Origin: Leucoraja erinacea
Taxonomy: Eukaryota
Assembly: GCF_028641065.1 (NCBI RefSeq)
Contig: NC_073387.1
Location: forward strand, 15,934,001 to 15,998,000
Reading direction: 5' to 3'
Length of the DNA: 64,000 nucleotides
Of the stretch, positions 5,741 through 62,516 are shown piece by piece. The position numbers were made by a program, and so were the translations under genes. The notes beneath the pieces are model-generated. The model was given only the letters and a program-made list of their open reading frames with translations. It was not told the DNA's origin and did not search any database. Every line of letters begins with the position of its first letter. Position 1 is the stretch's first letter.

Positions 5741-7065
5741 CCCTAGTATTGTGCAGTTTAACGGTTAGATGCCACCAAGTGATGGCAATGCCTTAACCAT
5801 TTGTATGTTGTAAGGCCACTAGGGCCCCTTCCATCCTTATCAAGGGGAGTGCTTTCATACAACACATAAACTAATCACGTGTTATCATTATCATTTGTAC
5901 AAAAAACAAGTGTAAATATTACCAACTTGTAAGTGGTTCACATACCCCATGTTTTGGAAGTGCCAGACCTGCCTTCCTGCATGGTTACCTTGGTTGGAGA
6001 GTAGGACTGGTAGGGTGCGTGGATTCCATATTTTTCCTGAGACCGACTTGGGCCTTTGCTTAAAAGGCCTCTGCCCAGCTTTCACGCTGCCACCAGCTTC
6101 AGTGAACCGCTTACTGCCGATGGAGGTGTGGGGTGTGTTGTCACCGAAACGATGAAGCTTTGCTCGTCGTTGGTACCTTGATTGGTCTGACAACTTTTCT
6201 TTCCTCATCCAGGTCTTACCTGTTGAATAGGTCTTACCTGAAGAGAAGATTTGGCGGCTCCTCTAATGTCACCCCTGATAGCACTGTTCACTGCCGGCAC
6301 TTTTAGCGTGAGGGGAACTCTGGCCCCTTCCAGGTATTCTGCCAATGGCTGGTAACCGACTTTTCTGGCAGCAACACCTTCGTTTGCGAGGATTGCCTTG
6401 AAGACATGCGCATGTGCTCCAGTATGACATACTTTAGAATTTAAAGTCAGTTACACACTGACCACTTGCACTCCCCTCCACAGAGAGGAAGGTTGGTAGG
6501 CAGCCCTGAAACAGGTGCTGCCGCAGGCCCCTGAGGATACCTGCACTGATATGGCCCCTCCTACGGACCTATACCAGGATGGGACATCACATTTGTGAGA
6601 TAAACGCCCGAGGGCGCTATCCATGCTCCATTTTACCCATAGCTCATGAGTCAGAAAACTGACCTGAATGCTCCCCTTCGCAGAGAGGGAGACATTGTGC
6701 AGCCCTGTAACAGGTGCCGCTGCCGCAGGCTCCTGAGGAGTCCCGGAATGATAGCTCCCTTCTTTGTACTGCCGTAGATTTGGGAGGAACAACAGCAGCA
6801 ACAGATTAGCAAGAGATACCACTGATTGGCTCTAGCCCAAGTGTGAGGGGAGGGGTGAAAACAGTTGAAAACTGAGGAAATGGCTGTGTAAATTGGTAAA
6901 TCAGGCAATTTATCAGTCAATTTAAGCAGGACAGGTCTTTGCGAGCGGCAGTGAGTGAGCGGCCTAGTGAGGGAAGTGCCCTGTGAGAAAAGTGTGAGTC
7001 TTTGGCTCGAGAGTCTTCGGAGAGGAGACCACGCAATACGCTTGAGAGGGAGACGAAAGAAGGAG

Positions 7066-7983
7066 ATGTCAGGCAAGCTGATTCAGTGCGATGCTTGCAG
7101 TATGTGGGAGGTTAAGGACACCGCTGGTGCCTCTGGCTGCTACAAATGCGAAAAATGCATCCAGGTAGAGCTCCTGAAGGGCCGTGTTGGGGAACTGGAG
7201 AAGCAAGTGGATGACCTCCGGTTCGTAGGAGAAACGGAGTCGTTCCTCGACAAGTCCTACAGTACGATTGTTACACCTAAGGTACTGGAAGAGAGAAGGT
7301 GGGAGACAGTGAGAAAGGGAGGGAAGCATGGAATGCCAACGTCCCCGGGTGATGTACCTCTTGTAAACAGGTTCATCCGTTTAGAAGCTGTTGGGACAGA
7401 AGACGTGAGCGGTGGACTGGCCTGTGATGCGAATAGGGCTGTTGAGACAAAACCAAAAAGGCCTAAGGCAGGCAAGGCCATTGTAGTGGGAGACTCCATC
7501 GTAAGAGGTACGGACAGGGGTTTCTGCGGCAACAGACGGGATGCGAGGATGGTGTGCTGCCTTCCCGGTGCCAGGATCCAGGATGTCACGGACAGAGTGC
7601 AGAAAATCCTCAAGGGCGACGGTGAACATCCGGAAGTGGTTGTGCATGTCGGCACAAACGATGTCGGAAAGAAGGGGATGAATATTCTGCAACGTGACTT
7701 TAGAGAGCTCGGAAAAATGTTGAAAAGCAGGACCTCCAGGGTTGTTATCTCCGGTTTGCTTCCAGTTCCCCGTGCTGGCGAGAGCAGGAACAGGGAGATA
7801 CGGGACCTGAACGTGTGGCTGAGGATCTGGTGCACGGGGCAGGGATTTAGATTCTTAGATCACTGGGATCTGTTTTGGGGTAAGGGGGAACTGTACAAAA
7901 GGGACGGATTGCATCTTAACAGGTGTGGGACCAGCATTCTGGCAGGCAAGTTTGCCACTGCTACACGGGTGGCTTTAAACTGA
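7066..7983 (+). CDS. CR1 ORF1p: zinc finger/leucine zipper plus SGNH esterase domain, intact (305 aa from ATG 7066)
   Basis: CDAC...CEKC, heptad leucines, and SGNH blocks GDSIVR, HVGTND and DGLHLN. Confidence 0.9.
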   Translation: MSGKLIQCDACSMWEVKDTAGASGCYKCEKCIQVELLKGRVGELEKQVDDLRFVGETESFLDKSYSTIVTPKVLEERRWETVRKGGKHGMPTSPGDVPLVNRFIRLEAVGTEDVSGGLACDANRAVETKPKRPKAGKAIVVGDSIVRGTDRGFCGNRRDARMVCCLPGARIQDVTDRVQKILKGDGEHPEVVVHVGTNDVGKKGMNILQRDFRELGKMLKSRTSRVVISGLLPVPRAGESRNREIRDLNVWLRIWCTGQGFRFLDHWDLFWGKGELYKRDGLHLNRCGTSILAGKFATATRVALN

Positions 7984-7999
7984 ATAAGGGGGGGGGGGT

Positions 8000-10900
8000 G
8001 TTGAATGGGACAGTGGAGGATGGAGTTAAAGGGAAAGGGTTTCTTAAATGTGTGAGCGTAGAGACCGAAGGGTGTAAAATGAGGGTAGAAGAAATAGGTA
8101 GCAAGGTGAAAAGTAAAAGTGGCAGGCAGACAAAACCAGGGCAAAAATCAAAAAGGGCCACTTTTCAACATAATTGTGTAAGGGGTAAGAGTGTTGTAAA
8201 AACAAGCCTGAAGGCTTTGTGTCTCAATGCAAGGAGCATTCGTAATAAGGTGGATGAGTTGAATGTGCAGATAGCTATTAATGACTATGATATAGTTGGG
8301 ATCACGGAGACATGGCTCCAGGGTGACCAAGGCTGGGAGCTGAACATCCAGGGATATTCAATATTCAGGAGGGATAGACAGAAAGGAAAAGGAGGTGGGG
8401 TAGCGTTACTGATTAGATAGGGGATTAATGCAATGGAAAGGAAGGACATTAGTTTGGAGGATGTGGAATCGGTATGGGTAGAGCTGCACAACACTAAGGG
8501 GCAGAAAACGCTGGTGGGTGTTGTGTACAGGCCACCTAACAGTAGTAGTGAAGTTGGAGATGGTATCAAACAGGAAATTAGAAATGCGTGCGACAAAGGC
8601 AAAACGGTTATAATGGGTGACTTCAATCTACATATAGATTGGGTGAATCAAATTGGCAGGGGTGCTGAGGAAGAGGATTTCTTGGAATGTATGCAGGATA
8701 GTTATCTAAATCAACATGTAGAGGAACCAACGAGAGAGCAGGCTATTTTAGACTGGGTATTGAGTAATGAGGAAGGGTTAGTTAGCAATCTTGTTGTACG
8801 TGCCCCCTTGGGCAAGAGTGACCATAATATGGTTGAGTTCTTCATTAGGATGGAGAGTGACATTGTTAATTCAGAAACAATGGTTCTGAACTTAAAGAAA
8901 GGTAACTTTGAGGGTATGAGACGTGAATTGGCCAAGATTGACTGGCAATTAATTCTAAAAGGGTTGACGGTGGATATGCAATGGAAGACATATAAAGACT
9001 GCATGGATGAACTACAAAAATTGTTTATCCCAGTTTGGCAAAAGAATAAATCAGGGAAGGTAGTACATCCATGGATAACAAGGGAAATCAGGGATAGTAT
9101 CAAAGCGAAGGATGATGCGTACAAATTAGCCAGAAAAAGCAGCATACCGGAGGACTTGGATAAATTCAAAGACCAGCAGAGGAGGACAAAGGGCTTAATT
9201 AGGAAAGGAAAAATAGATTATGAAAGAAAACTGGCAGGGAACATAAAAACTGACTGCAAAAGTTTTTATAGATATGTGAAAAGAAAGAGATTAGTTAAAA
9301 CAAATGTAGGTCCCTTGCAGTCAGAAACAGGGGAGTTGATCATGGGGAACAAGGATATGGCGGACCAATTGAATAACTACTTTGGTTCCGTCTTCACTAA
9401 GGAAGACATAAATAATTTGCCGGAAATAGCAGGGGACCGCGGGTCAAAGGAGTTGGAGGAATTGAGTGAAATCCAGGTTAGCCGGGAAGTGGTGTTGGGT
9501 AAATTGAATGGATTAAAGGCCGATAAATCCCCAGGGCCAGATAGGCTGCATCCCAGAGTACTTAAGGAATTAGCTCCAGAAATAGTGGGTGCATTAGTAA
9601 TAATCTTTCAAAACTCTTTAGATTCTGGAGTAGTTCCTGAAGATTGGCGGGTAGCAAACGTAACCCCACTTTTTAAGAAGGGAGGGAGAGAGAAAATGGG
9701 GAATTACAGACCAGTTAGTCTAACTTCGGTAGTGGGGAAACTGCTAGAGTCAGTTATTAAAGATGGGATAGCAGCACATTTGGAAAGTGGTGAAATCATT
9801 GGACAAAGTCAGCATGGATTTACGAAAGGTAAATCATGTCTGACGAATCTTATAGAATTTTTCGAGGATGTAACTAGTAGCGTGGATAGGGGAGAACCAG
9901 TGGATGTGGTGTATCTGGACTTCCAGAAGGCTTTCGACAAGGTCCCAGATAAGAAATTAGTATACAAACTTAAAGCACAAGGCATTGGGGGTTCAGTATT
10001 GATGTGGATAGAGAACTGGCTGGCAAACAGGAAGCAAAGAGTAGGAGTAAACGGGTCCTTTTCACAATGGCAGGCAGTGACTAGTGGGGTACCCCAAGGC
10101 TCAGTACTGGGACCCCAGGTATTTACAATATATATTAATGATCTGGATGAGGGAATTGATGGCAATATCTCCATGTTTGCGGATGACACTAAGCTGGGGG
10201 GCAGTGTTAGCTGTGAGGAGGATGCTAGGAGACTGCAGGGTGACTTGGATAGGCTGGGTGAGTGGGCAAATGTTTGGCAGATGCAGTATAATGTGGATAA
10301 ATGTGAGGTTATCCATTTTGGTGGCAAAAAAAAAACAGGAAAGCAGACTATTATCTAAATGGTGGCCGATTGGGAAAGGGGGAGATGCAGCGAGACCTGG
10401 GTGTCATGGTACACCAGTCATTGAAGGTAGGCATGCAGGTGCAGCAGGCAGTAAAGAAAGCGAATGGTATGTTAGCTTTCATTGCAAAAGGATTTGAGTA
10501 TAGGAGCAGAGAGGTTCTACTGCAGTTGTACAGGGTCTTGGTGAGACCACACCTGGAGTATTGCGTACAGTTTTGGTCTCCAAATCAGAGGAAGGACATT
10601 ATTGCCATAGAGGGAGCGCAGAGACGGTTCACCAGACTGATTCCTGGGATGTCAGGACTGTCTTATGAAGAAAGACTGGATAGACTTGGTTTATACTCTC
10701 TAGAATTTAGAAGATTGAGAGGGGATCTTATAGAAACTTACAAAATTCTGAAGGGGTTGGACAGGCTAGATGCAGGAAGATTGTTCCCGATGTTAGGGAA
10801 GTCCAGGACAAGGGGTCACAGCTTAAGGATAAAGGGGAAATCCTTTAAAACCGAGATGAGAAGAACTTTTTTCACGCAGAGAGTGGTGAATCTCTGGAAC

Positions 10901-12401: not shown

Positions 12402-12674
12402 CTGAACAATCTAATGCAGCGACTGAGGGAGACAACGTTACCCTGACCTGCTCTGTGTCAAAGGTCACTAAGTCAATGAGACTTGTTTGCATCAATGGTG
12501 ATGGCAAAATAGTGGGAGAGAAAATTTCCAAGGAGCCAAGGCAGGAAGAGACATCTTTACAGCTGATCATTCCAAAAGCTGTTGCAGACAAAAGGAATCA
12601 TCGCTGCGGTTTGTTTCTTCAAAATACTCCCAAGGTTTTAATTCCATATGGTCTGAATGCATTGCAATCCAATG
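12402..12674 (+). CDS. Gene A exon: membrane-proximal C2-like Ig domain of an ITIM-bearing IgSF receptor
   Basis: Acceptor ttgtttcccag, donor g|gtaagt, phase 1/1; reads EQSNAATEGDNVTLTCSVS...SLQLII...NHRCGLF; paralogous to 51208-51468. Confidence 0.88.
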
Positions 12675-14229
12675 GTAAGTGTCTTGTCTTCTGCTGTTTG
12701 TAATTTCCACAGAAACGGAATATTATTTATTTCTTCTAACGTATCATATTTCATAACCCACTGCGGTTAGTATCTCTGGTAACTCCTGCCCACTCTGTGG
12801 AAGGGTCTGTGGATCCCACATTGTCATCAACAGTAACATCTGAATCCGCAAAACTGGAGAATTAAAAAAAAAACATTCTCAGGATATCACCCATTCCTTG
12901 GGCATTAAGTGTGTGGCGTAGTTACTCCTAGTATCCAATGACTGCCTCCTCAAGATCACAAATGGGATGAGAATTAATTTCAAAATTAGCTTTTGGACAT
13001 TTTTGTCCTGAAACAACAGAGGAGTTGTGTCATTATCATTGGGGCGATGGGTGTGTCCTATCACACACAGACATGAATTCAAGACAACGCTCAGACACAC
13101 AATGAGCACTGTTGCATTTGAGATATATTTTATCAAGCCCTTCCTCATGTCTCCATCTGCACTTTCATTCAATGGTTCAGAAGTCAAGTGAACTCAATAA
13201 ATATCCAACAATATTTAATGCTTTCTGCTTTAACACTTCTTCGGGAAAGCTTTGTTTTGCCGACCCTGCAGTTTCAATACACCAACACATGTAAAACTCT
13301 CCTGGAAACAGCAACTTTCTTCATGATGGTAACTGTGAGCTTTTCGTTGCTGTTTATTTTCTCCTGCAGAGCAGCAGTCTCCCTCTGGGTGAGGACAATA
13401 GGGCTCTGACTACAGTCGGCTGAGAGTCCACCGAGGAATGAAGACTTTGTTTGTGCTCTGCCTGTGCCTCAGTGACAGTAGAACCCTGCTCCAGCAGCCG
13501 CTGCACCAGGGGAGAGGCCACCCCCACACCCACTCCCACTGTTGTATCCCCAACCCTTTGATTGGAAACCTGTGCTCATGGCTCTACAGAAAGCCGTGCG
13601 GAAGGTTGGAGATGGGATCTCTGACAGTCCTTGACATCTCTTCCATGCTGTAAGGCAGAAAAACCTTCCCATGTACTCATCCTCATCACAGTTTCCATCA
13701 GACTCCTCTGGGGCAGATCTGAATTTGAACCCTGACCTCCAAGGAGTTGCTATACAAACCTCCCAATCCTTTGGTCTAACTACAGCCGACTGCTGCCCAG
13801 TCTGAAGTGTCCAGCAAGTGATGGAGCCTTAAACTACATGGGTTTGTGAACAGATTGGCAGGTGTGCAGCATTGATGAACTGGTCAACCTTACTAGAAGA
13901 AATGAAAGATTATGCACAAAAATGCACAGAAGAATTTTCTGCTGCATTGCAATAGAATAGCAATAGGTTGGTCTAGTTCTTGATCAAAAGAAAAATAAGT
14001 ACATCTGATTAAATATGAAATAAAATCAGAGAATGCTGGAAGCATTCATCAGGTCAGAAAGCATCTGTAGAAAGATGAATATAATGAAGGTTGCTGATTG
14101 AAAATGTTTTGTGAGAATCCGTCAAAGTATTTTCAGACAAAAAAAATAAATTTACACTACTTCAATCTGCACTACAATCTGTGCACCATTTTGCTATTTT
14201 GGGCATTCCTTGTAGGAATCCTTATAGCA

Positions 14230-15490
14230 TTTGTCACGCACACTGTCAAAAAGGCTTTCAGTACATTCGCCTTGATCAGTCAAAGGATTGTGTATAGAAG
14301 TTGGGATGTTATGTTACAGTGTACAAGATGTTGATGAGGCCGCACTTAGAATATTGTTCTCAGTTTTGGTCACCCTGCTATAGGAAAGATTTTGTTAAAC
14401 TGGAAGGAATCAGAAAAAATTCATGAGGACATTGCCAGCACCTGAGGGCCTGAGCTATAGGGAGAAGTTACCAGGCTTGGACATTATTCCGTGGACGGCA
14501 GGAAAGTGAGGAATGATATTATAAAGATGTTTAAGATTATATGGGGAATAAATGGGGTAAATGCACAGTCTTTTAACCAGAGTAAGGGAATTAAGCTGAG
14601 AAGGGAAAGATTAATAGGATATTGAGAGGCAACATTTTCACACAGAGGGAGCTGGGTATATACATTAATAGACATTAGCCAATAGGTGCAGGAGTAGGCC
14701 ATTCAGCCCTTTGAGCCAGCACTGCCATTCAATGTGATCATGGCTGATCATAGCCCATCAGTACCCCGTTCCTGCCTTCTCCCCATATTCCCCAACTCCG
14801 CTATCTTTAAGAGCCCTATCTTGCTCTCTCTTGAAAGTATCCAGAGAACCGGCCTCCACCGCCCTCTGAGGCAGAGAATTCCACAGACTCACAACTCTCT
14901 GTGAGAAAAAGTGTTTCCTCGTCTCCGTTCTAAATGGCTTACTCCTTATTCTTAAACTGTGACCTCTGGTTCCGGACTCCCCCAAAATCGGGAACATGTT
15001 TCCTGCCTCTAGCATGTCCAAACCCTTAACAACCTTCTATGTTTCAATAAGATCCCCTCTCATCCATCTAAATTCCAGAGTGTACAAGCCCAGCTGCTCC
15101 ATTCTCTCAGCATATGACAGTCCCGTCATCCCGGGGTTTAACCTTGTATTAGCTGCCAGAGGAGTTCGATGAGGCATGTATGATAACATTTAAAAGACAT
15201 TTTGGCAAGTGCATGGATAATGAAGGTTTAGAGCAGTGGTTCTTAACGTTTTTGGCAACAAATTGATATGTTATTTATGACCCCTTCATGACCCCTTGCA
15301 AAGCCCCAAATGAATGACACCCCCCCCCCCCCCCCCCCCCCACCCCCACAGGGGGTCATCACCCCCACGTTAAGAACCACTGGTTTAGAGGGATATGTGC
15401 CAAATGGGTCCAAGTAGGACTCGAGTGGATGGGGCAGCTTAGTTGTCATAGGCAAGTAACGGGGAAGATCCTGTTTCCCTGCAGTTTGAA
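14230..15490 (+). mobile_element. Old CR1 3' fragment interrupted by a younger minus-strand CR1 (14667-15150) and a MITE
   Basis: Degenerate RPHLEYC-like region at ~14335-14370; minus-strand ORF 14758-15021 is the CR1 C-terminus (TRGHSL, VVSLWNSLP). Confidence 0.75.
15234..15382. mobile_element. hAT (Charlie-like) MITE, 149 bp
   Basis: Perfect 16-bp TIR cagtggttcttaacgt / acgttaagaaccactg; 8-bp TSD gtttagag at 15226-15233 and 15383-15390. Confidence 0.9.
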
Positions 15491-15833
15491 TTTATCATTA
15501 TAGAACCCTTGGACAATGGGCAGCATCACAGCTGACTTGGATCGAGCTATCTGCACATATCTCACGCCAGACAGGGTCGCCGAATTGAAAGCAGGAACAA
15601 TAACCTGGTGTCATTTGTTTCCTGTTGTTAACTGATGGGTACTGAGGTCAGTTATAGCTCTCAGATCTTCCTGAGCGAGGTCTGTTAACCTGGATCAGGA
15701 AGTAAGTCCAGGACCTCTGGACTCTGCTGGTTAATTATAAACTAGACCACATGATTACAGCTGGAAGATTGGAAATGCTTTGGAATGATGGTTTAGAAAC
15801 TCAAAGTAATATCTGTGCTTATTCTTCTGACAG

Positions 15834-15941
15834 ATTTTTCCCCTTCAAAGGAAATTATTATTATTATTATTAGCATCGTGGCTTCTCTGCTCTTCATTAT
15901 CCTGACAGTGGTGGTGTGTTGGGGAATTCGTAAGTGGAGAG
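15834..15941 (+). CDS. Gene A transmembrane exon (uncharged TM)
   Basis: Acceptor ttcttctgacag, donor g|gtaagg, phase 1/1; DFSPSKEIIIIIISIVASLLFIILTVVVCWGIRKWR. Confidence 0.88.
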
Positions 15942-16000
15942 GTAAGGTGCAATTTTTTTCTCAATGTGCTGAAGAGAAAAGAACAGTTACTGGAATTAAA

Positions 16001-16850
16001 TGAATGAATGAATAAATGTATTGCCCAAGTATATTCACATACAAGGAATTTGCCTTGGTGCTCCGCCAAGTGACAACATGACATACAGTGACAGTTAGGA
16101 ATGACACATAAAACTTTAAACGTTAATAAAGGAACATTATCGATTAAATGTGAATGAAATAAAATACCAGAGCAAAAGGAGGCTACAGATTTTTGGATAC
16201 TGAGTAGAGCTACTACTCGTGTGAAAAAGCTGTTTTTATGTCTGGCTGTGGCAGCTTTGACAGTCCGGAGTCGCCTTCCAGAGGAAGTGATTCAAAGGGT
16301 TTATGGCCAGGGTGAGAGGGGCCAGAGTGAGAGATCCTGGCCCTTGCATTGTACAATTTGTCAATGGAGGGAAGGTTGCAGCCAATTACCTTCTCAGCTG
16401 ATCGGACAATTAGCTGCAGCCTCCGGATGTCGTGCTTGGTGGCTGAGCCAAACCAAACCATGATGTAGAAGGTGAGGACAAACTCTACGATGAACATCTA
16501 CGAATTGGACCATGTGCCTGTGGTAGATTGTGCTTCCTCAGCTGCCGCAGGAAGTGCATCCTCTGTTGTGCCTTTTTGAATGTGGAGTCGATGGTGTGCC
16601 CCCCCCCCCCCCCCCCCATTTAAGGTCCTTGGAAACTATGGTTCCCAGAAACTTAAAAGATGCCACAGATGTGATTGTGGTATTGTTGATGGTGAGTGGG
16701 GTGAGGGGAGGGGGAGCTCTCCTAAAGTCCGCAATCAATTCCACTGTCTTAAGAGCATTGAGCTCCAGGTTGTTACGATGGCACCAGGATGCCAGCTGTG
16801 TCACTTCCTGTCTGTAGGCAGATTCCTCCCCATCCTGGATCAGTCCATAA
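16001..16850 (-). mobile_element. Rex1/Babar-like LINE 3' fragment
   Basis: WCHRNNLELNALKTVELIADFRR, FKFLG, VWFG motifs; (attc)n-type tail at ~16001-16016; second copy at 41533-43355. Confidence 0.8.
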
Positions 16851-17705
16851 ATGTGTTTGTGTTTCTGTTGTTGAGAAGGTGGATTTCACTTTTTTCAGTT
16901 TGCTAAAACATTATTGTCTGAGCTATCAATGTTGTCATGACCAATCTCCTTTGCCTTCAGATCACTTGTGTCCAACTGAGAGGGCAGAAAGATCTTAGTT
17001 TTACAAATAATCACAATGATAATCTCTGATCAGGTGGTACTTCCAATACAGCAGCAATCCCATAATACGGCAGTAGAGTGTCAGCTTCTATTGTATGATC
17101 AGATACTCTTCCAATCTGGTGTGCATCTTTCTATGTTATGGCACATGGAGTCTATCAGAGAGATACCAGGGTATGAACAGAACATTCTTTACTGAAAGCA
17201 GTAGCTCTCAACTAAACAGCAGTGCCTGGAGCACTGATCATGTGCATGGTGCCGCCCCTCCATTGGTCTGGCCACTCCTGTGATGCTGACCATCAAACAG
17301 CCTGATTGATGTTGCCCTCATGTTAGATTGGTTGCTGCCTCAGTGCTGAATCTCCATGGGCCTGGCCATTCCCCTCAACATCATCCTCCACAGACCTAAA
17401 TGCTGAAAATTCTGCTCCAAAGTTCCCAGCAACAAAAGAGACACATTTATTGGAACAATATTCAATGTTAATTTAATTTAGAAGTAATCCCATTCTTATT
17501 TTGCTCTATGTAATCAGACTTTATCGGATTTCAATATTCCATATATCCCTAAATGTTGTCCCTGTTTTCCTTGATCTATGCACTGTGGAAAGCTTGATTG
17601 TATTCATGTATTATACTTTTCCTTGACTGGAAAGCACACAAACAATAATGTATTTCAGTGGTCTAGTCTAGTCTAGTCTAGTCTAGTCAACATGAAGGTC
17701 TCAAA

Positions 17706-17905
17706 AAGCTGGAGTAACTCAGCGGGACAGGCAGCATCTCTAGAAAGAAGGAATGGGTGACGTTTCAAGTCGAGACTCTTCTTCAGATCCAAAACGTGAC
17801 CCATTTCTTCTCTCCAGAGATGCTGCCTGCCTGCCTCGCTGAATTACTCCAGCATTTTGAGTCCATCTTCGCTTTAAACCAGCATCTGCAGTTCCTTCCT
17901 ATACT
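17706..17905. repeat. Penelope-type short repeat, two copies in inverted arrangement, with a degenerate hammerhead core; preceded by (ctagt)n
   Basis: gctggagtaactcagc...gcagcatctct mirrored by agagatgctgcc...gctgaattactccagc; gacgtttc...tcttcag at ~17759-17786. Confidence 0.7.
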
Positions 17906-17947
17906 AAACGAAGGCCTTGACACATATAAATTGATTCTTCATTTCAG

Positions 17948-18013
17948 TCCCTGCAGAAACAGAAGAAGATATCCATTATGGATCTATCACCTTCCAGAAA
18001 AAAGCGGCAACAG
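17948..18013 (+). CDS. Gene A cytoplasmic exon 1, containing an ITIM
   Basis: Acceptor ttcttcatttcag, donor g|gtaaat, phase 1/1; VPAETEEDIHYGSITFQKKAAT (IxYxxI). Confidence 0.85.
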
Positions 18014-18422
18014 GTAAATCACTATTTTTCTTTTTTTTAAATCATTTTTTAGTTCTTTTTATCAACTGATTGTTGGCACTGGGTCTGAAATCTTGAATGT
18101 TTGTGCATCTTAGAAACACATTCAGCATTCCAGGACCCTCACGCTGCCCATTGACATGTTCTAGGACAGTCAGTTGAGACTTCGTTGATACGTCAATATT
18201 CTCTGAGTGGGTTCAGGACCCCTCCAGAGATCTGAGCACTGACATCCGAGCTGATGTCACAACGACAGATTGCAAATGAGATTTCTGAACATCAATGTCT
18301 AGCTGGCCCTTTATAATTAAGTGGAAAGCTGTACGTTTCAGACATTTGTATTCCATCATCACGTCCTTTGTCAGTGGGATCCACCAGTCATCGTTTAATT
18401 GCGATGTTTCCAATTATCACAG

Positions 18423-18466
18423 GGCGCCGTGATGGAAAATCACCCTCCAACCAAGAGATAGATATG
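18423..18466 (+). CDS. Gene A cytoplasmic exon 2 (44 nt)
   Basis: Acceptor caattatcacag, donor atg|gtcagt, phase 1 to 0; GRRDGKSPSNQEIDM; this exon is needed to put the final exon in the ITIM frame. Confidence 0.75.
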
Positions 18467-18597
18467 GTCAGTACATTCATTCCTTGTGGTGAAATACCAA
18501 GTAGCGCATTCTCAATTTCTGGAAGCTTCTGCAAAGTTTCGCTGATATAAGAATATACGGCAACAAATTGTATTAAGGTGATCATTTTCTCTTTTAG

Positions 18598-18666
18598 TAC
18601 CTGGCTTCTTCAAGGAACGACGATTCATCTGTCATCTATGCGGGAATAGCACAAACAAAGATGTGA
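18598..18666 (+). CDS. Gene A terminal coding exon with a second ITIM and stop
   Basis: Acceptor ttttctcttttag, phase 0; YLASSRNDDSSVIYAGIAQTKM* (VxYxxI). Confidence 0.82.
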   Translation, partial: YLASSRNDDSSVIYAGIAQTKM

Positions 18667-20279
18667 ATGAAGCGGAAAAAAAGTTCCACACATTGAGACG
18701 GAAATGTAGAATGAAGCTTTTTTGTGAACTGAATTTTTACTTTCCAACTGCTGCAGCTTTTATCTTTTGTACTGCGGGGAAGCTGGGGCTCAGAACACTC
18801 GGGTTTGGGGAGAACTTTGAATATGGCCAGAGGGATCATTTTAGATGTGAATGCAAACAATCCAAAGGAAAAGGAGGACAGGGTGGATATTCTGAACTTT
18901 TTTCCCAGGATGGAAATACTGGAGGGTATAGCCTTAAGATGGGTGTGGGGAGCGTTCGGGGGGGTGGGGGCTGGGGGATGTGGGGTGCAAAGTTTAAAGG
19001 AGATGTGTGAGGCTACTTTTTTCACAAGAGTGTGGGTGCCAAGAACGCGCTGCCGAGGGTGGTGATGGGGGCAGATAGAATAGTGATATTCAAAAGAAAT
19101 TTGGATAGGCAAAGGGATATGCAGATTATGGAGGGTTATAATGACAGGCAGATAAAGGTTGGTCTTGGCATCATGTTTGGTAGTGCTTAAGGAGATGCAC
19201 GGGGCAACTGTTTTACACAAGGGTGCTGAGTGCCGCTAATCTATTAACAAATATCACAAACACAAGCATGATTTAAAAGAAAAAATATGTTTCTCTCTGA
19301 CATAGCAGTGTAGAATGTAGACTTTTGTGAACTGAATTCTTCGTTTTTCAGCAACATAGAAAGCAGTTAAATAGCTTTTATATTTTGTTTATGCTCTGAT
19401 TTAACATTGCACCAAGCTTACAATAGATCAATGCTGTTCCTGACGAATGACTTACAAATCAGTACCAGTTTTCTTAATATTGATTCAACATCTGTATTCA
19501 GCGTCTGAAGATGTTCTGTCAAAGATTGCAGATGCATTAATCAAAATAAATGCACCATTGCAGGTAATGTTAGTGTCCTTACAGCTTGTATCTCTGAATT
19601 ATAATTAGTAAAAGTAATGATTTAACTGAAACACAAAAATCCTAGTTATCAGCCAGATGTAAGAGTGCGAGAGAACTGGACTGTCAGAGGATTGGACAGA
19701 CACTACTATTTTGTCTGCTCTCTTAACAGATCACCAGACTCTGCTCAATGGGCTTTGTGACCATTTCTGGGACTGACCTTGATCACAATGGGCTTTGTGA
19801 CCATTTGTGGGACTACTGCGGGAAGGTTGTGGAAGGTTATGCTGCAGCAGGCTGGCACCTTCGCTGAGATTGTGCAGGAAGGAGCAGAATGGGAGTGGGA
19901 TGAGGCTGCAAGGAAGCTGACGTGAAACTCAGACAAGACCAAAGAGCCAGACAGACAGGGGAAGGAAGAGTTTGTGTTGAATCCATAATTTGGCCAGGAG
20001 AAGGTTGAATGCACAATGGAGTTTAAGATCAATGGGGACCTGCAGTTACTGCTGATAACATCCACTCAAGATCTACCTGAATGTGAAGTATCTCAGCTAC
20101 AAGACCACTGCCATTGGGAAGGATGAACTAATCTGTTACAAGAAGTTGTACCTCAAAGGACTGACAGAGATTGACCCTAAAGTTGATTATGAGTCACTGA
20201 ACATAGCACAGCGGGTAGAGAGGAATGATGTAATAACATCCATTGTTAAATTAATGTTACTGAAATTGCTCCACACCAG

Positions 20280-48393: not shown

Positions 48394-48481
48394 ATGAAGC
48401 CCAGGTTTATCTGCAGCAGTTTGCCAGGTGGTTTGATGTTCGGTTTCTTTGTTTTCCTGCTTCGACCTGTTTCCAACCAGA
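48394..48481 (+). CDS. Gene B first coding exon: signal peptide
   Basis: Upstream acceptor atttcccacag (48381), aagATGa start context, MKPRFICSSLPGGLMFGFFVFLLRPVSNQ, phase-1 donor a|gtaagt. Confidence 0.75.
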
Positions 48482-48854
48482 GTAAGTGCTTTCTCTTCAC
48501 CGGTCACAATCACGTTGCTTTACTTTATCATTGTCCGTGTAAATCCGCACCCCATTGTCAATCTCACTTTTTCAATTCAATTCAACTTTAATGTCATCGC
48601 ACAAATACAAGTATGACTACAACGAAATGCAGTTTTGCGCCAGTCCGTAGTAGTTGTGCATAAAGAAATAAAAAAAATAGAAAGAGAGAAGATACAGAAT
48701 AATCAAAAAATACAGAATAATTAAACAATGGGGACGGAGGGACCGGAGAAATCTATCGGCGGGACTCCGAGTTCAGTAATGTGATTGTATTGTTGTAGAA
48801 GCTGTTCCTCATCCTACTAGTACGTGACCTGAGGCTCCTGTACCGCCTCCCAGA

Positions 48855-49255
48855 AGGATGAGGGGGTTCTTATAGAAACATATAAAATTATAAAAGGACT
48901 GGACAGCTAGATGCAAGAAAAATGTTCCCAATTTAGGGCTACAGAACCAGGAGCCACAGTCTTAGAATAAAGGGGAGGTCATTTACGACTGAGGTGAGAA
49001 AAAACTTTTTCATCCAGAGAATTGTGAATTTGTGGAATTCCCTGTCACAGAGGGCAGTGGAGGCCAAATCACTGGATGGATTTAAGAGAGAGTTAGATAG
49101 AGCTCCAGAGGCTAGTGGAATCAAGGGATATGGGGAGAAGGCAGGCACGGATTATTGATTGGGGATGATCAGCCATGATGACAATGAATGGCGGTGCTGG
49201 TACGAAGGGGTGAATGGCCTCCTCCTGCACCTATGTTTCTATGTATCTATATTTC
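48855..49255 (+). mobile_element. CR1 (subfamily A) 3' fragment in a gene B intron
   Basis: Matches 11678-12040 and shows the uninterrupted DIRS target site. Confidence 0.85.
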
Positions 49256-49513
49256 TAAAAGCACACCAGCTCAAAGATGCAGAGATTGTAGTGTAGTCTG
49301 AAGTAATGCAAAATAAAACTAATGTTTATGAAAATGCCCCAGGGGATGATTGGTTTAACGTATGATGAGTGTTTGTGGCTCTGGGCTTGGACTAGCTGGA
49401 GTTTAGAAGAATGAGGGGCGGGTCTAGTTTGTCAGCTGAGGTGAGATTGAGCCCAGTCATTGGACTGTCCACACCACTACTCACTCTGAATCTCATTGAT
49501 CTGTTTTTCACAG

Positions 49514-49783
49514 TTGAGGCAAGTCCACAGCGCCCTCTGCTGGGCAGTGACGTCACACTCAGCTGCACCATCTCCAGACTCTCAGATACAGTCAGTCTTC
49601 ACTGGAGACCAATGGTTTCATCCCAGAAGAACACGAGCAACACTGATCAGACCCGCCTGAATAACACGGTCTATCTGATGATCCGACATGTTACAGTGGA
49701 GGATGGGAAGTTGTATGTGTGTGATGTGCAGGAAAACGGAAACATTGTTCTCACCAGTAATGGAGATTTTACTGTAAACAACA
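49514..49783 (+). CDS. Gene B Ig domain 1 (C2/I-like)
   Basis: Acceptor tgtttttcacag, donor a|gtgagt, phase 1/1; EASPQRPLLGSDVTLSC...SLHW...YLMIRHVTVEDGKLYVC. Confidence 0.9.
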
Positions 49784-50760
49784 GTGAGTGTAAACACCTC
49801 CCATTACATATCAAGTAGACACTTGTATCACGGTGCTTCTTGGAATGTTATGCGTGCGCCCTGTGAAGAACTGTAGACAAGCAACTGCTCTCCTGTATAA
49901 AATGCTGCAATGATCAGGGAGAATTTTCCAGAAAGTCTCTCTGTGGAGCAGCTGTCTGCTTGTCTCTGTGTGACAGACACACAACACAGGAGTGATGATG
50001 TATTTCTGTAACGTTCAGTAAAGTATTTTGTCAGTTTAACTTGCCATCAATGCTCCAGTATCTGAGACTGAGATACTGATACAGGACTCGCGTCAAAGTG
50101 TCAGATAGAAGGTGTAGTCACCATGACAACCACCAGCACTTGCTGCTCACACTCACACTGGGGGTCCCGGTGCACACATCAGCACTGAACAACAATCCGT
50201 ACTCCCTCCCCTCACTGACCCTTCTCTCCGAGTCCTGCTGCTGTTTGAAGTGATTCCAGCTGCTGCAGACTCGGGCTTCAGATCAGCATTGAGCTGGGAG
50301 CAGGACCCAGGAACAGGGAAGGGCAGGGAATCAATGGGTGTGAATGGGAGAGTGATGGTGGGAATAATGGTAATGAAGGGACGGGAAGACCCGACCCACT
50401 TGAACTGCCAACCTGTCCGGATCTGGCCCCGCGCAGGCATTCTCTGGGCTGCTGCTGTCACCAGCCTCGACCTGCACCACCTCCCGCAGACTGACAGAGA
50501 GATTCACCTCCCGGGCCGCTCTCGGGAGTCTCCGGGAGGGTTCATTCCATCATGGAAGATTCCTGGACCGTCTGTGAAATATCCAAGCTTTACTGCAATT
50601 TACTACTTTACAGGAAATTTTGTAAAGATCTGATGAGTTTTGATGTAAAATTAATTTACATTTGAAGCTTGATCAGCTGAACAAAACACTGCAAATATAT
50701 ATGAGAATTTAGTTGTAACTGTAATACTGAAATGAGTTATCCTCTGTCTCTCCGATACAG

Positions 50761-51129
50761 TTTTATTTAAAACGGAATACACAGTTTACCGCTCCAGTAC
50801 AGATCATAGTGAACTTCACCTGGTTTGCTATAACAGTCGTGGGGATTCCAATACTGCCATGACCTGGACATCACGTCGCCTTCAACAGCAACAACAGCAA
50901 GTATTAGCATCAGCAACACACTCTCAGCCCATCAATGTCAAAGGGGCCAACTTCGGGAATCGACTGGTGACGTCAGTGAAACATTTCGATGGCAAGGATT
51001 TCAGTTTGAGGATTGTCCCCGTTTTATTTCAAGATGCCGGATGTTACAAATGTTTTCTTGGAAAAGACACATCAGTGAACAACGCGGGAAGGTCTCCATT
51101 TCTCACCGTTGATCTAATCGCAGTGAAAG
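50761..51129 (+). CDS. Gene B Ig domain 2 (V-set)
   Basis: Acceptor ctctccgatacag, donor g|gtagga, phase 1/1; LHLVC...MTW...NRL...DFSLRI...DAGCYKC. Confidence 0.9.
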
Positions 51130-51207
51130 GTAGGAGACAGAATGCCGCCAGTGTTTTCACTGATGAACTCATTGTTTAAAATGTAAACAACCTGCTTGTT
51201 TCCACAG

Positions 51208-51468
51208 TCACAGCTGAACCGTCCGATGCAGTGACTGAGGGAGACAACGTTACCCTGACCTGCTCTGTGTCTCACGTCACTGAGTCAATGAGACTGATTT
51301 GGATCAATGGCGATGACAAAAGTGTTGGAGAAAAGACACTGACCGTGGAAGAGAAATCACTGAGTCTGGTTATTCAGAAAGTTGAGAGGGGCAGAGGGAA
51401 TTGGAGATGTGGTTTGTTTCATCAAGACCTGCTCCGGCATTTTGTCCCGTACTATCAGGAGCCCAGTG
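51208..51468 (+). CDS. Gene B Ig domain 3 (C2 with WxC F-strand motif)
   Basis: Acceptor ttgtttccacag (in-frame alternative 6 nt downstream), donor g|gtaagc; VTEGDNVTLTCSVS...LIWING...SLSLVI...GNWRCGLF. Confidence 0.9.
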
Positions 51469-51624
51469 GTAAGCGACTCAGGGTTTGCTCTTCATACTTA
51501 GAATTATGGTCACATTTTGACGTGACTTATTATTGTCCTATTTGCCAGCACTCACTCCTCCTTTATAGCCTGTGTGGGACACTGCTGTGGTGCAGTGCCT
51601 GGGAATATGGACAGTGGGATAACT

Positions 51625-51809
51625 CACTGGAAACCAAGAGGCTCATCTCAGTAGAACAGGAGGAACAATTGATCAGATCCATCTGATTAACACCATCTAT
51701 CTGATGGTCCAACATGTTGGAGCAGGAAATCCCAATCTGTACACATGGGAAGTGCAGGAAAATGGCTCCATTGTTCTCACTGGAGACACCAATGTTGAAG
51801 TGGATCAGG
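51625..51809 (+). pseudogene. Decayed duplicate of the gene B domain-1 exon (pseudo-exon)
   Basis: HWKPRGSSQ*NRRNN / DQIHLINTIYLMVQHV...LYTWEVQENGSIVLT aligns to 49600-49783; TAG at 51652, +1 frameshift, Cys to Trp; donor g|gtgagt retained. Confidence 0.85.
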
Positions 51810-54649: not shown

Positions 54650-56335
54650 TTCTAAAAGTCTAAAATGGAGGAGTATCGCAACGTGCACTGGTCTAGACAC
54701 CTTATCTCCCTCGGACCCTTTGGAATTTAACTCAAGGACACTCTTTGTTCAAAATGAAGGAAAGACTGATTTAACAACGGAGAGACGAACAGGAGAGCCG
54801 AACGTGGAAAACATCACAAGGACAAATGGCGGTTTAAGATCTTAAAATCGTTTTACAAAACACAGAGAATTAATAATAATTAACAACACTAATATAGAAA
54901 TAGAAATGGAAACTAACCAGAACTATATAATGGGGCAAAATGTAATAATGTGTTAAAAAGACAGACTATCCAGTATATAGAGCGAGACAGTTAAGCAGAG
55001 ATAAAGAAATAACAAATAACAAATTTTAGAACTAACGTAGACAATATCATAAGTTTTAGTGCTATGTACTTTGTGTGGGGAAGGGAGGAGACTCAGGCAT
55101 CTGGCATAGTTCCAGGAGCCTGATTCTGGTTAACCCTTTCAGCCGACAACTGACTATTATCAAAGGTATAACTAACTATAAATAGTTAGTAGATAAAAGT
55201 GTTAGATATATAAGTTTCACAGTAGCTGAACATACGATTTGATAAGTCTTAATGAAATATATATATATAGTGCAATTGGGTGAAATACAACTGATTTTGA
55301 AAGGTCCCGCCCTCCTAGGCTAAGAGTAATAAAGGGAGCGGAGCCCAAGCAATCAATTGTATAACATCAACATTGGAAGTCGAATTGATGTCAAACCCCA
55401 CAGTGTGTGGGACACTCATTACAGTGTCGACTACTCTAGACACTGTAATTTCACTTGTTCAATTTTTTTTAAATCACAATATGTCACAACTATGTGTTTC
55501 TTTTTTTAAGGACAATCGTAAAAGGGATCTAACAAAGGAAGTCAATAACATAAACGTTCCCCAAATATCCAGAGTCCTGACGTATGGATGCACCATAATA
55601 ATTAAGGGTATTAAAATCAGCGAAAATGCATGACGATAAACTAAAGAAAATGGGAGGAATCGCATTCTGCAGCTAGAACATAAGGGGTATTAATGAACCA
55701 ATCAAAAGGGGCAAGATAATAGCTCAGTTGAAATCATACAACACGGACATTACTTTTTTACAAGAAACGCATCTTAAACACCAAGATCAGATCAGGTTGA
55801 GGGCGAATTGGATAGGCCAAACATATCACTCTTCACACACCTCGAAATCCAGAGGTACCGCAATTATTATTCGCAAAGGAATACCATTTAAATCTAAGAA
55901 CATTATATCAGATAAGGAAGGGAGATATCTTATAGTTACAGGAAGATCTATGCTACGCCAATCACCTTGGTAAATATATACGCGCCCAATTTTGATAATC
56001 CTCAATTTTTCAATAAAATCTTGAATACAATCGCAGAGTTCAACTACCAAAATGTTATAATTGGAGGAGACTTCAACTGTGTTTTAGACCCATACTTAGA
56101 TAAATCGATGCAAAAACAAAGAGGTATTATGAAATCTAAAACTAGTGAACTCTTAAATACATACACAAAAAATACAAAAATAACAGACGTTTGGAGGATC
56201 GCGAATCCGACTGGAAGGGAATACTCGTTTTATTCAATGGTACACAAAACATACGTATAGATTATTTCCTAGTGGATACAAAACTAATCCCTTATACTAT
56301 GAACCCTAAATATCACACCAATACAATTTCAGATC
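54650..56335 (+). mobile_element. Internal L1-clade fragment (upstream spacer + ORF2 APE endonuclease) inside the second DIRS
   Basis: NIRGINEPIKR, FLQETHL, SDKEGRY, NIYAPN, GGDFN, DVWR, IDYFL. Confidence 0.82.
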
Positions 56336-57608: not shown

Positions 57609-58332
57609 ATTGATACAAATACATCGATAGATGCTTCTGAACACATCATCAGTGGTGTAACCTGGGGTCAATGGGTGTTTCGGGTCTTTCAACATCAGAC
57701 ACCCTCACCCAGGTGACCCAGCCATGGTTGATCAGACCACGACTTGTGTTCAGGTGGCATTCGCTCCTTCCCATGGACCTCCTCTCCTGATCCAGAGCCA
57801 TCTCGAGGCCTTCTCCGCTACCTCTGTGGTGTTCTTGATGGCCTTTCTCCTTGCCACTCCGTTTATGCCTGGTGCACTGAAGGCTTTGTAGAGTGATTGC
57901 CCTGCAAAACCTCTGCAGCCAACCTCGATGGGCATACACCTTGCCTTCTAGCCCTGCTTGTGGCAGTCTATGACCAACTCTTCATACTTGGCCATCTTCC
58001 TCTTGTGGGCCTCTTCCAAACGGTCCTCCCATGGCACTGTCAGTTCCAACAAGACGATGCTTTTGGTCGCCTCTGAGACCAGGAGGATATCTGGCCGCAG
58101 GGTGGTCATGGCAAAGTGCCGTGGGAACTTCAGCTGTTTCACCAGGTCTACGGAAAGCTGCCAGTCCTGCGCAGTCGCCAGGATACCTGACTGATTCCTG
58201 GCTGCTGTGGTTCTTGGCAGCTGCACTCCAGCCTTCACGAAGGTGATCATCTGGGTGGTGGGGCGTTCTCGTCTACAGCTGCTGATTCCCATGCTGATGG
58301 CTTCTGCAATGGGTTTAAGAACCTGGTCGTGA
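57609..58332 (-). mobile_element. 5'-truncated HERO-like non-LTR retrotransposon (restriction-like endonuclease domain + 3' UTR)
   Basis: TTLRPDILL...LELTVPWE...KMAKY...PIEVGCRGF...ASRWLW; 7-bp TSD cagagta at 57602-57608 and 58333-58339; the DIRS YR frame resumes afterwards (DSRLCVV). Confidence 0.82.
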
Positions 58333-61315: not shown

Positions 61316-61404
61316 ACATTAGGATCATCACAGTCCTTGGCTACTTGTCGATTAAACTGGCCGTTGCTCTTGGACTAATTTGCTGCTCGTGGAGGATGAA
61401 CCGG
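61316..61404 (+). CDS. Gene B transmembrane exon with an intramembrane lysine
   Basis: Acceptor ctttgtccttcacag, donor cgg|gtgaga, phase 1 to 0; DIRIITVLGYLSIKLAVALGLICCSWRMNR. Confidence 0.8.
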
Positions 61405-62408
61405 GTGAGAATTTCATGAGCTTTTCAATATATCAGAAACCAATGGCGTTGAAAAAATGGATGTTCACAGAACATATTAGAATGGTGACAATCTGTATTT
61501 TAGTGTTTGGCATTGAACAGTGCAACACAGAAATACATGATTTAAACTTATTCCTTTTGCCTGCTCTTGATCCAAATGTCTCCATTCTCAGCATATTAAT
61601 TAGCCAATCTAAAATCCTCTTAAACGCCACTATCATAACTATTTCTACCACAAACCTTCGATAAACTTCATAAAGGTTAAATGTGTGTTATTTGCTCTAT
61701 CTCAGGCTGCATCCTGGTCAACCTCTTCTGCGTTTTATCCAAAGCCTTCCCGTCCTTCCTTTAATGGGGCTACTAGAACTCCTAATGTGAATAATCAAAG
61801 TTTTTTTAAACATGCAGCATGACTTCCCAACTCCTATTCTCAATGGCCCAACCGATGAAGGCAAGCATACTTTGTGCATTCTTTACCATTTTATCTACTT
61901 GTGTTGTTACATTCAGAGAGCTATGGACATGAACCTTTAAACTTTTTCTATCCATTTACTTGTCCAATGTTTTTTAAATGCTGTTACAGAATCTTCCTCA
62001 GCTATCTCCTCTGGCAGCTCATTCCAGAAACCTATCACCATCTGATTGAAAAAATTGCCCCTCAGGTTCCTATTAAATCTTTCACCTCTCATTTTGAACC
62101 CATGTCCTCTGATTCTTGATACCCCAACCCGGGTAAAGACTTTGTTCATTCACATATCTATTCCTTTCTACAATCTAAACTTGTAATTTTGTAAGATATC
62201 AAATATGAAAGAACACTTTATCAACACAAATTGGAAAAAAATTCCACATTCAATATTCACGATGATATTGGTGTGTTTTTAGTTGAATTAAATGACCATG
62301 AAAATGTTTCTAACTTGGTCTGCAACCTCTTACCTATCACTTCCAGTCTATTGTTTATTATTGTTTATCTTTATTTAAAAGCATATTTGTTTCTCTTGTT
62401 TGATACAG

Positions 62409-62516
62409 AGCAGCAGATATTCACAGGAATTTCCAGGAAACACCACAAATAATTCAAGAGCTGTCGCATTGCAGACCCTGAATTCTGACCCTGATCTGAG
62501 AGATCAGAATGAATGA
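62409..62516 (+). CDS. Gene B terminal cytoplasmic exon (no ITIM or ITAM)
   Basis: Long pyrimidine tract and tgatacag acceptor, phase 0; SSRYSQEFPGNTTNNSRAVALQTLNSDPDLRDQNE*. Confidence 0.65.
   Translation, partial: SSRYSQEFPGNTTNNSRAVALQTLNSDPDLRDQNE

What the first reader, a model, noticed from the sequence alone, without database searches (positions are those of the whole stretch)
15834..18666. Dual-ITIM tail of gene A assembled from three tiny exons invisible to the ORF track
Seen: exons of 66, 44 and 69 nt give VPAETEEDIHYGSITFQKKAAT-GRRDGKSPSNQEIDM-YLASSRNDDSSVIYAGIAQTKM*. The two ITIM tyrosines are separated by 39 residues and each is preceded by acidic residues. Skipping the 44-nt exon shifts the frame, removes ITIM2 and reads on to a stop at 19010. 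Established: tandem ITIMs engage the tandem SH2 domains of SHP-1/2, and EEDIHYGSITF resembles the Siglec/CD22-type proximal ITIM context. Inference: a functional inhibitory tail that splicing could tune.
Basis: partly seen in the sequence, partly recalled or inferred. Interest (0 to 1): 0.7.

Follow-up and report, generated by a model that had tools for sequence, protein, structure and literature searches.

The report
Spliced two-ITIM tail, skate paired receptor
Three tiny exons are really spliced together to give a skate cell-surface receptor a tail with two inhibitory-type motifs that the database gene model lacks, so it is likely an immune 'brake' in an apparently unnamed family of predicted CD4/LAG-3-shaped on/off receptors, while tuning by exon skipping is unproven for this gene.

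Summary
Observation confirmed. Exons 17948-18013 (66 nt), 18423-18466 (44) and 18598-18666 (69) have AG/GT ends; both tyrosines fit the ITIM consensus, 39 residues apart. One contig of run X3 joins the transmembrane exon and all three exons at these sites; two intron-covering runs show no such joints. The RefSeq model of this gene (P0004) stops before the transmembrane exon; the thorny-skate orthologue model has this tail. Both motifs occur in 37 of 63 relatives, 34-41 residues apart. The gene encodes eight Ig domains, two V-C2-V-C2 units; a neighbour in the window has a transmembrane lysine and no ITIM. Relatives reach from chimaera to frogs, fold most like CD4/LAG-3 but branch apart from them; eight searches found no paper on them. 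Skipping is not seen for this gene, and the long read-through is not conserved (1 of 8 paralogues); two ray proteins do end in the skip frame. The tail anatomy is ordinary; the family is the interesting part. SHP binding is inferred.

The parts
12402..12674 (+). Gene A, exon of the eighth Ig domain (C2 type; the family's W-x-C is H-x-C here and the C-strand Trp is Cys)
   Evidence: 100% match to P0004 residues 752-851
12675..12703 (+). Intron read-through where the RefSeq model P0004 ends (nine residues, then stop); would give a soluble ectodomain
   Evidence: an X3 contig of depth 12 runs 12645-14318 across this donor
15834..15941 (+). Gene A transmembrane exon, 108 nt, phase 1-1, no charged residue in the span
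   Evidence: its 3' end is joined to 17948 in an X3 contig
17948..18013 (+). Tail exon 1, 66 nt, phase 1-1; ITIM1 (IHYGSI) at 17971-17988; second in-frame acceptor at 17957
18423..18466 (+). Tail exon 2, 44 nt, phase 1-0 linker; required to read ITIM2 in frame
   Evidence: homologous linker exons in paralogues C, D, E
18598..18666 (+). Coding part of last exon, 69 nt; ITIM2 (VIYAGI) at 18631-18648, stop 18664-18666
18667..19550 (+). Likely 3' UTR to the first AATAAA at 19545; holds a LINE 3' fragment; the hypothetical skip frame runs through it to a stop ending at 19010
   Evidence: the 3' end is inferred from the signal only
48394..51470 (+). Gene B: leader exon 48394-48480 and three Ig exons (about 49513-49782, 50760-51128, 51208-51470); no first-domain exon found
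   Evidence: 84, 60 and 92% identical to gene A domains 2-4
61316..62516 (+). Lysine-bearing transmembrane exon (61316-61404) and short ITIM-free last exon (62409-62516), assigned to gene B by position: predicted activating counterpart
   Evidence: splicing to gene B's Ig exons not tested

Best explanation
The three exons are spliced onto the transmembrane exon and encode a cytoplasmic tail with two ITIM-consensus motifs, which likely makes gene A an inhibitory member of a clustered family of predicted CD4/LAG-3-shaped paired immune receptors. Shown: the exons, the joints, the motifs, eight Ig exons upstream, lysine-TM siblings. [quoted passage not shown] The small exons are the family's ancestral modular tail; gene A is a shortened version lacking the YxN and EYxxV exons of longer paralogues. 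The linker exon is most likely included by default. The ligand is unknown; MHC-like or pathogen surface molecules are guesses.
For: Spliced contig across all four exons, absent from two intron-covering runs. Orthologue model P0027 has the same tail. 37 of 63 relatives carry both motifs, spacing 34-41, mode 38 (the 63 include isoforms). ITIM1 exon differences against three paralogues fall mostly on third codon positions (9, 7, 9) rather than second (2, 2, 3). Consensus S/I/V/L-x-Y-x-x-I/V/L, and SHP-1/SHP-2/SHP-2L binding residues conserved across jawed vertebrates (PMC12151841 passages). SHP-2's two sites lie about 50 A apart and short linkers lose activation (PMC7078208 passages); that 39 disordered residues span this is my inference (tail pLDDT under 50). 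Pairing: 9 of 63 relatives have the lysine TM, one lies in this window, and sawshark lysine-TM and ITIM proteins are 97% identical over 430 residues. Dual-tyrosine tails persist in eel, tarpon, knifefish, catfish and frog relatives.
Against: No binding, phosphorylation or expression-site data. Splicing rests on one contig of one run whose type is not on record. The joint between the last Ig exon and the TM exon is not displayed in any table. RefSeq's model for this gene has no TM or tail, and X3 also holds intron-covering contigs there. Gene A's last Ig domain has lost two conserved tryptophans, kept in 55 of 57 scored relatives for W-x-C (the two exceptions are gene A and its orthologue), and domain 6 lacks a cysteine, so the ectodomain may be partly decayed. 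The cluster contains broken copies.
Confidence: 0.8

Rival explanations
1. The tail is a regulated splice switch like CEACAM1-L/S: skipping the 44-nt exon makes a one-ITIM, weaker or dominant-negative form of gene A in a regulated share of transcripts.
For: Phase 1-0 geometry guarantees the shift and the stop lies in the last exon. CEACAM1 does this with a 53-nt exon (PMC2490704 passages). Two ray proteins (P0281, P0091) end in ITIM1 plus six residues that are the last exon in the shifted frame; random 7-mers fit 0 and 2 times in 100,000. The open frame of 136 codons is rarer than local composition predicts (0.00045 in a Markov test).
Against: No skip joint in X3. The read-through is 136 codons in 1 of 8 genes and 5-50 in the other seven, 31 in the 83%-identical paralogue C. 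Its last eight codons sit in a LINE reverse-transcriptase frame, which explains only the end. P0281 and P0091 also lack two Ig domains, so exon loss in a truncated gene is as likely as skipping.
Confidence: 0.2
2. Gene A mainly makes a soluble eight-Ig decoy by reading through the donor at 12674, as RefSeq models it; the tail exons are a minor or decaying product.
For: P0004 ends this way, as do other cluster models such as P0007 and P0257. An X3 contig crosses the donor and runs to 14318, past AATAAA at 13196, 14019 and 14145.
Against: The fully spliced TM-tail contig exists in the same run. X3 contigs also cover the 3' end of this intron and part of the next long one, which fits unspliced precursor. 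Splice sites and motifs are intact and conserved. Contig depths cannot rank the forms.
Confidence: 0.12
3. The protein is an adhesion or thrombocyte receptor of G6F/G6B type rather than a leukocyte checkpoint, and the motifs act in haemostasis or endocytosis.
For: Nearest ESM Atlas clusters by features are G6f-like (0.96) and G6b-B (0.95). G6fL has four Ig domains, YxN and an ITAM (PMC3528668 passages); 23 of 37 dual-ITIM relatives carry YxN.
Against: No ITAM and no YxN in gene A. None of the proteins named is called G6f-like, whereas CD4 and LAG-3 appear. Atlas scores for CEACAM and HEPACAM2 clusters are within 0.01. No G6fL sequence was compared directly.
Confidence: 0.15

Closest known systems
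CD4 / LAG-3 family (PMC10768021, passages read)
   Same: V-C2-V-C2 unit with W-x-C in the fourth domain; CD4 and LAG-3 fill Foldseek ranks 1-7 for the orthologue's model; VIA-align Z 15.0, rmsd 3.2 over 175 residues for domains 3-4 against CD4 D1-D2; coelacanth CD4 and LAG-3 are hit at E about 1e-19.
   Different: No Cx(C/H) and no (F/Y)xxL(D/E); two canonical ITIMs; domain 2 has Y-x-C; domain 1 lacks the canonical cysteine pair; unit doubled; multigene cluster with lysine-TM siblings; 30 family rows split from 9 CD4/LAG-3 rows at 100/99 (7 of the 9 rows were labelled from their tails, one of these later named CD4; no outgroup).
Paired IgSF families of fish: DICP and NITR (bioRxiv 10.1101/2021.06.11.448072, passages and section 13 read)
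   Same: Clustered genes with ITIM, charged-TM, secreted and ambiguous forms; some DICPs double their two-domain unit.
   Different: DICP domains mostly carry four cysteines and bowfin activating forms use Arg; here one to three cysteines and Lys. No DICP sequence was compared.
CEACAM1-L/S (PMC2490704, passages read)
   Same: Two ITIMs behind a small frame-changing tail exon (53 nt there, 44 nt here).
   Different: In CEACAM1 skipping removes both ITIMs and is documented; here it would leave ITIM1 and is not observed. Ectodomain match is weak (E 2.5e-5).
G6f-like / G6b-B (PMC3528668, passages read)
   Same: Four-Ig ectodomain in G6fL; YxN in longer family members; top Atlas look-alikes.
   Different: ITAM in G6fL against two ITIMs here; multigene cluster here.
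CD33-related Siglecs / CD22 (features recalled, no call)
   Same: Acidic-x-Ile/Leu-His-Tyr-small-Ser-hydrophobic-x-Phe context of the proximal ITIM plus a distal tyrosine motif.
   Different: First domain lacks the sialic-acid-binding arginine position and the V-set cysteines; a Siglec (MAG) ranks below CD4/LAG-3 with TM 0.17.

Membership tests
ITIM-bearing inhibitory Ig receptor (kind) | Cytoplasmic S/I/V/L-x-Y-x-x-I/V/L motif(s) in a spliced transcript | tested here: met
   IHYGSI and VIYAGI; joints in X3; consensus
ITIM-bearing inhibitory Ig receptor (kind) | Single TM without charged residue, Ig ectodomain with leader | tested here: met
   the Ig-to-TM joint itself is not displayed
ITIM-bearing inhibitory Ig receptor (kind) | Phosphorylation-dependent SHP-1/SHP-2/SHIP binding and inhibition | not testable with these tools
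   needs pull-down and reporter assays
Paired receptor family (kind) | Linked siblings with similar ectodomain and a charged TM residue | tested here: met
   gene B in window; 9 of 63 relatives; 97% identical sawshark pair
CD4 | Cytoplasmic Cx(C/H) LCK-binding motif | tested here: not met
   no such motif after the TM span; definition
LAG-3 | Cytoplasmic (F/Y)xxL(D/E) motif | tested here: not met
   absent from the tail; definition
CD4 / LAG-3 | V-C2-V-C2 ectodomain | tested here: met
   two such units; predicted fold of the orthologue
CD4 / LAG-3 | W-x-C in strand F of both D2 and D4 | tested here: not met
   D4 has it, D2 has Y-x-C, D8 has H-x-C
CD4 / LAG-3 | Groups with CD4/LAG-3 in a tree | tested here: not met
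   separate side of a 100/99 branch; unrooted, so sisterhood is neither shown nor excluded
CD4 / LAG-3 | Conserved genomic neighbourhood | tested here: inconclusive
   marker searches for TIM and EMG1 found nothing in G000; flanking DNA not analysed
CD4 / LAG-3 | MHC class II binding | not testable with these tools
   no skate MHC II partner at hand
G6f-like | Cytoplasmic ITAM plus YxN | tested here: not met
   neither in gene A; definition
G6f-like / DICP | Linkage to the MHC | tested here: inconclusive
   0 of 15 MHC class I matches lie on C11; all lie on contigs numbered C633 or higher, whose chromosome is not given
DICP | Four conserved cysteines in D1 and D2 | tested here: inconclusive
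   gene A domains have 0-3 cysteines, but four-domain DICPs also lack most extra cysteines; no direct comparison
Siglec / CD22 | N-terminal V-set domain with the sialic-acid-binding arginine and disulfides (recalled) | tested here: not met
   domain 1 has one cysteine and no arginine in the F-strand stretch
CEACAM1-type L/S splice switch | Both inclusion and skip transcripts exist | tested here: inconclusive
   only inclusion seen; contigs drop rare forms; skip-frame ends in 2 ray proteins

The most novel reading that the evidence does not exclude
Gene A belongs to a third, overlooked branch beside CD4 and LAG-3: a paired on/off receptor family as old as jawed vertebrates, kept from chimaeras to frogs, whose exon-by-exon modular tail (YxN, EYxxV, ITIM1, frame-setting linker, ITIM2) is retuned by exon loss and skipping. 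If it is the sister group and reads MHC class II, it shows the innate paired-receptor stock from which the T-cell co-receptor and its checkpoint arose.
Probability: 0.3. Interest if true: 0.82.

Novelty: new variant of a known kind. Interest (0 to 1): 0.5.

Why it matters
A dual-ITIM tail spread over small exons is common among inhibitory Ig receptors and would not surprise a specialist. Two things lift it. The spliced contig shows that this gene makes a membrane receptor tail that its RefSeq model omits. And the tail identifies the gene as the inhibitory arm of a family that every database entry seen here leaves uncharacterized or labels only by generic likeness, that spans chimaera to frogs, and whose nearest solved folds are CD4 and LAG-3. 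That gives a testable handle on where CD4/LAG-3 came from and on innate inhibitory receptors of cartilaginous fish. Earlier notes of this scan reached the same family from other genomes, so the family is not new to the scan.

Tried and rejected
No RNA holder listed by the run search; X4 laid nothing on the tail exons, which is no evidence either way; X4 and X5 contigs on 19056-19519 and 19118-19386 have depth under 5 and are not used. The first laying was swamped by repeats. Processed pseudogene as the source of the joined contig: rejected, since X1 and X2 lack the joints and the 10 genome matches are genomic copies with flanking intron sequence where aligned. Contig from paralogue C: rejected, C is 83% identical while the contig differs by 2 letters. 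Long read-through as a conserved product: rejected. Remnants of the YxN and EYxxV exons in gene A's TM intron: none found; paralogue C keeps a YxN-exon homologue. Synteny: TIM and EMG1 searches blank; MHC I not placed; a LAG-3 query did not find the genome's own CD4/LAG-3 and gave only weak hits, best on this family (E 0.0013); 200 kb fetched was not analysed. Homologue search with LAG-3 gave 3 proteins and no help. Single-sequence PDB search gave only JAML at E 0.0014. No complex was predicted, since phosphotyrosine cannot be modelled there. Literature: looked for the family and found no description; PMC11372145 had 0 occurrences of five terms. The main supplement PDF of PMC3964593 could not be read and may describe these genes among its 'several CD4/LAG3-like molecules' (PMC6238376); subscription journals are not searched.

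Full report
1. Observation. The window is G000:C11:15934001-15998000. The transmembrane exon is 15834-15941 (108 nt) and the tail exons are 17948-18013 (66), 18423-18466 (44) and 18598-18666 (69 with the stop); each has AG before and GT after, phases 1-1, 1-1, 1-0 and 0. Leaving out the 44-nt exon shifts the frame and reads to a stop ending at 19010; leaving out the 66-nt exon keeps the frame and ITIM2.

2. Are the exons used? The run search listed three holders from one study, none on record as RNA. On 17925-18775, X1 and X2 cover exons and introns in 30 of 30 bins and show no splice joint. X3 covers 12 of 30 bins, the exons only; one 698-nt contig (depth 38.9) skips 409 and 131 nt with GT..AG ends, and its loose letters before 17946 are the end of the TM exon. 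It differs from the window by 2, 0 and 0 letters in the three pieces; the listed difference at 17979 is silent in the ITIM1 tyrosine codon. I read X3 as RNA because of these joints. A second X3 contig joins the linker exon of a paralogue to its last exon. No 18013-18598 joint is listed, but contigs drop rare forms. X4 laid nothing there.

3. The gene. A search with an upstream V exon gave 63 proteins, all from sharks, rays and skates. P0004, listed as LOC129701496 of Leucoraja erinacea, is 100% identical and lies on a contig of C11's length. Mapped back, it has a leader exon and eight Ig exons, seven upstream of the window and the eighth at 12402-12674, forming two V-C2-V-C2 units. That model then reads nine residues into the intron and stops, with no TM or tail. 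The Amblyraja orthologue model P0027 carries the TM and the same tail. Adding TM and tail gives about 937 residues (my arithmetic). The Ig-to-TM joint is not displayed; an X3 contig of depth 38.9 also covers 12622-12668, a weak hint, and X3 holds intron-covering contigs at 12645-14318, 15361-15842 and 16863-17256, which fit retained or unspliced long introns.

4. Conservation of the tail. Of the 63 proteins (isoforms included), 38 match my ITIM1 pattern, 38 my ITIM2 pattern and 37 both, spaced 34-41 residues; 9 have a lysine in the TM and a short tail. The patterns admit a few non-canonical ends such as Met or Gly at pY+3. Paralogues D and E place extra phase-1 exons with YxN and EYxxV motifs between TM and ITIM1; gene A has no trace of them, paralogue C keeps one homologue. 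So gene A's three exons are the conserved end of a longer modular tail. In the ITIM1 exon, differences against three paralogues favour third positions.

5. The splice-tuning idea. The shifted frame runs 136 codons in gene A but 31, 5, 7, 7, 50, 7 and 7 in seven paralogues (one of these has a stop in its ITIM1 exon). Openness of 136 codons is rare in a Markov test (0.00045), and a LINE frame accounts only for the last eight codons, so the length is not fully explained; lack of conservation argues against a selected product. For the idea: among 289 stored proteins, 65 carry ITIM1, 54 are followed by an ITIM2-type motif, and 2 of the other 11 (P0281 from Mobula, P0091 unnamed) end in six residues that are the last exon in the shifted frame; random 7-mers fit 0 and 2 times in 100,000. 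A third, P0245, looks similar but found no compatible start. These could be skipping or exon loss. CEACAM1 is the known precedent (PMC2490704, passages).

6. The family. The genome has 27 matches to the V exon among 35 candidates, 16 of them on C11 between 15.33 and 16.03 Mb. Gene B in this window is 84, 60 and 92% identical to gene A's domains 2-4 and is followed by a lysine-TM exon and an ITIM-free last exon. A profile search gave 406 proteins at E up to 0.001. Thirty were looked up by name: sharks, chimaera, bichir, sturgeon, bowfin, eels, tarpon, mormyrid, otophysans, herrings, pike and three frogs, labelled uncharacterized or hypothetical (one shark isoform CEACAM5-like), plus coelacanth CD4 and LAG-3, turtle CD4, one lamprey protein, one perlecan-like, one tilapia and one nameless entry. 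Many bony-fish and frog members keep two tyrosine motifs; bowfin and sturgeon have lysine-TM forms. The orthologue's model (mean pLDDT 80.2) matches CD4 and LAG-3 at Foldseek ranks 1-7 and CD4 D1-D2 at Z 15.0, rmsd 3.2, 175 residues; whole-chain rmsd is 12 or more, and MXRA8 and JAML single domains score within about 1 Z. A tree of 39 membrane-proximal V-C2 pairs separates 30 family rows from 9 CD4/LAG-3 rows at 100/99, without an outgroup. The Atlas puts G6f-like clusters first (0.96), with G6b-B, CEACAM and HEPACAM2 at 0.95.

7. Mechanism. Shown: spliced tail, two consensus ITIMs, conserved spacing, uncharged TM, lysine-TM siblings. Inferred from established ITIM biology: Src-kinase phosphorylation, two-site binding of SHP-1/SHP-2/SHP-2L, whose binding residues are conserved across jawed vertebrates (PMC12151841, passages), activation that depends on linker length (PMC7078208, passages), and damping of activating siblings. 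Ligand and cell type are unknown. Against full function: lost tryptophans in domain 8 and a lost cysteine in domain 6, shared with the orthologue.

8. Comparison and novelty. It works like other paired inhibitory Ig receptors; it is not CD4, LAG-3, G6fL or a Siglec by their defining motifs; DICP was not compared directly. Eight searches of the held library found no description. Papers seen as passages: PMC10768021, PMC3964593 (plus one supplement archive searched with 0 hits; its main PDF unreadable), PMC6238376, PMC3528668, PMC12151841, PMC5112662, PMC2490704, PMC7078208; bioRxiv 2021.06.11.448072 as passages and section 13; PMC11372145 searched for five terms with none found. PMC6238376 mentions several CD4/LAG3-like molecules in the elephant shark paper, and a nurse shark member is deposited as 'obscurin-like' (P0041), so prior mention is possible. 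Eight earlier AI notes describe the same family in other genomes; they are not independent support, and I found them after forming my reading. Searches by place and sequence found none.

9. Verdict. Real feature, confirmed at transcript level by one contig. Inhibitory reading 0.8; regulated skip switch in this gene 0.2. Interest 0.5: ordinary tail, corrected gene model, unnamed ancient family.

Noticed in passing
window 48394-62516: Gene B has a leader and three Ig exons but no first-domain exon was found; a partial extra C2 exon lies at 51671-51808, and a lysine-TM exon and short last exon follow about 10 kb later. Predicted activating sibling.
   Followed up: partly
window 12675-14318: RefSeq models of several cluster genes end by reading into an intron after an Ig exon; X3 has a contig across this donor. 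Possible soluble decoy forms or annotation artefacts.
   Followed up: partly
window 17948-17962: Tandem in-frame acceptors; X3 uses the upstream one, paralogues use the one at 17957. Runs X1 and X2 carry a 3-nt deletion at 17961, as does the orthologue model, while X3 does not.
   Followed up: partly
window 12402-12674: The eighth Ig domain has Cys for the C-strand Trp and His for the W-x-C Trp, in gene A and its orthologue only among 57 scored relatives.
   Followed up: partly
window 12622-12668: An X3 contig with the same depth (38.9) as the tail contig covers the end of the last Ig exon; the tail contig starts inside the TM exon and has 131 unplaced 3' letters.
   Followed up: no
L002:2822-2943 and window near 19309: A degenerate second copy of the last exon's end and the following UTR lies about 0.6 kb downstream in paralogue C, with a shorter remnant in gene A.
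   Followed up: no
G000:C11:15834372-15902262: Inverted and broken family exons upstream of gene A, including a copy with stops and a frameshift near 15869374-15870636: birth-and-death cluster.
   Followed up: no
L041-L042 (C1396): Paralogue H has a stop codon inside the ITIM1 exon; in I a second EYxxV-type exon lies before the TM exon.
   Followed up: no
P0245, P0056, P0057, P0157: Some relatives repeat the ITIM1-type exon two or three times, so ITIM number varies by exon duplication.
   Followed up: no
P0113, P0131: Multi-Ig membrane proteins, one named from a lamprey, score on the family profile (best domain about 50 bits, like CD4/LAG-3); possible jawless relatives.
   Followed up: no
window 7920-10355, 6955-7980 and many others: Near-intact and fragmentary LINE reverse-transcriptase frames fill much of the window; a tyrosine-recombinase-like frame at 57023-57610 suggests a DIRS-type element (labels recalled).
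   Followed up: no
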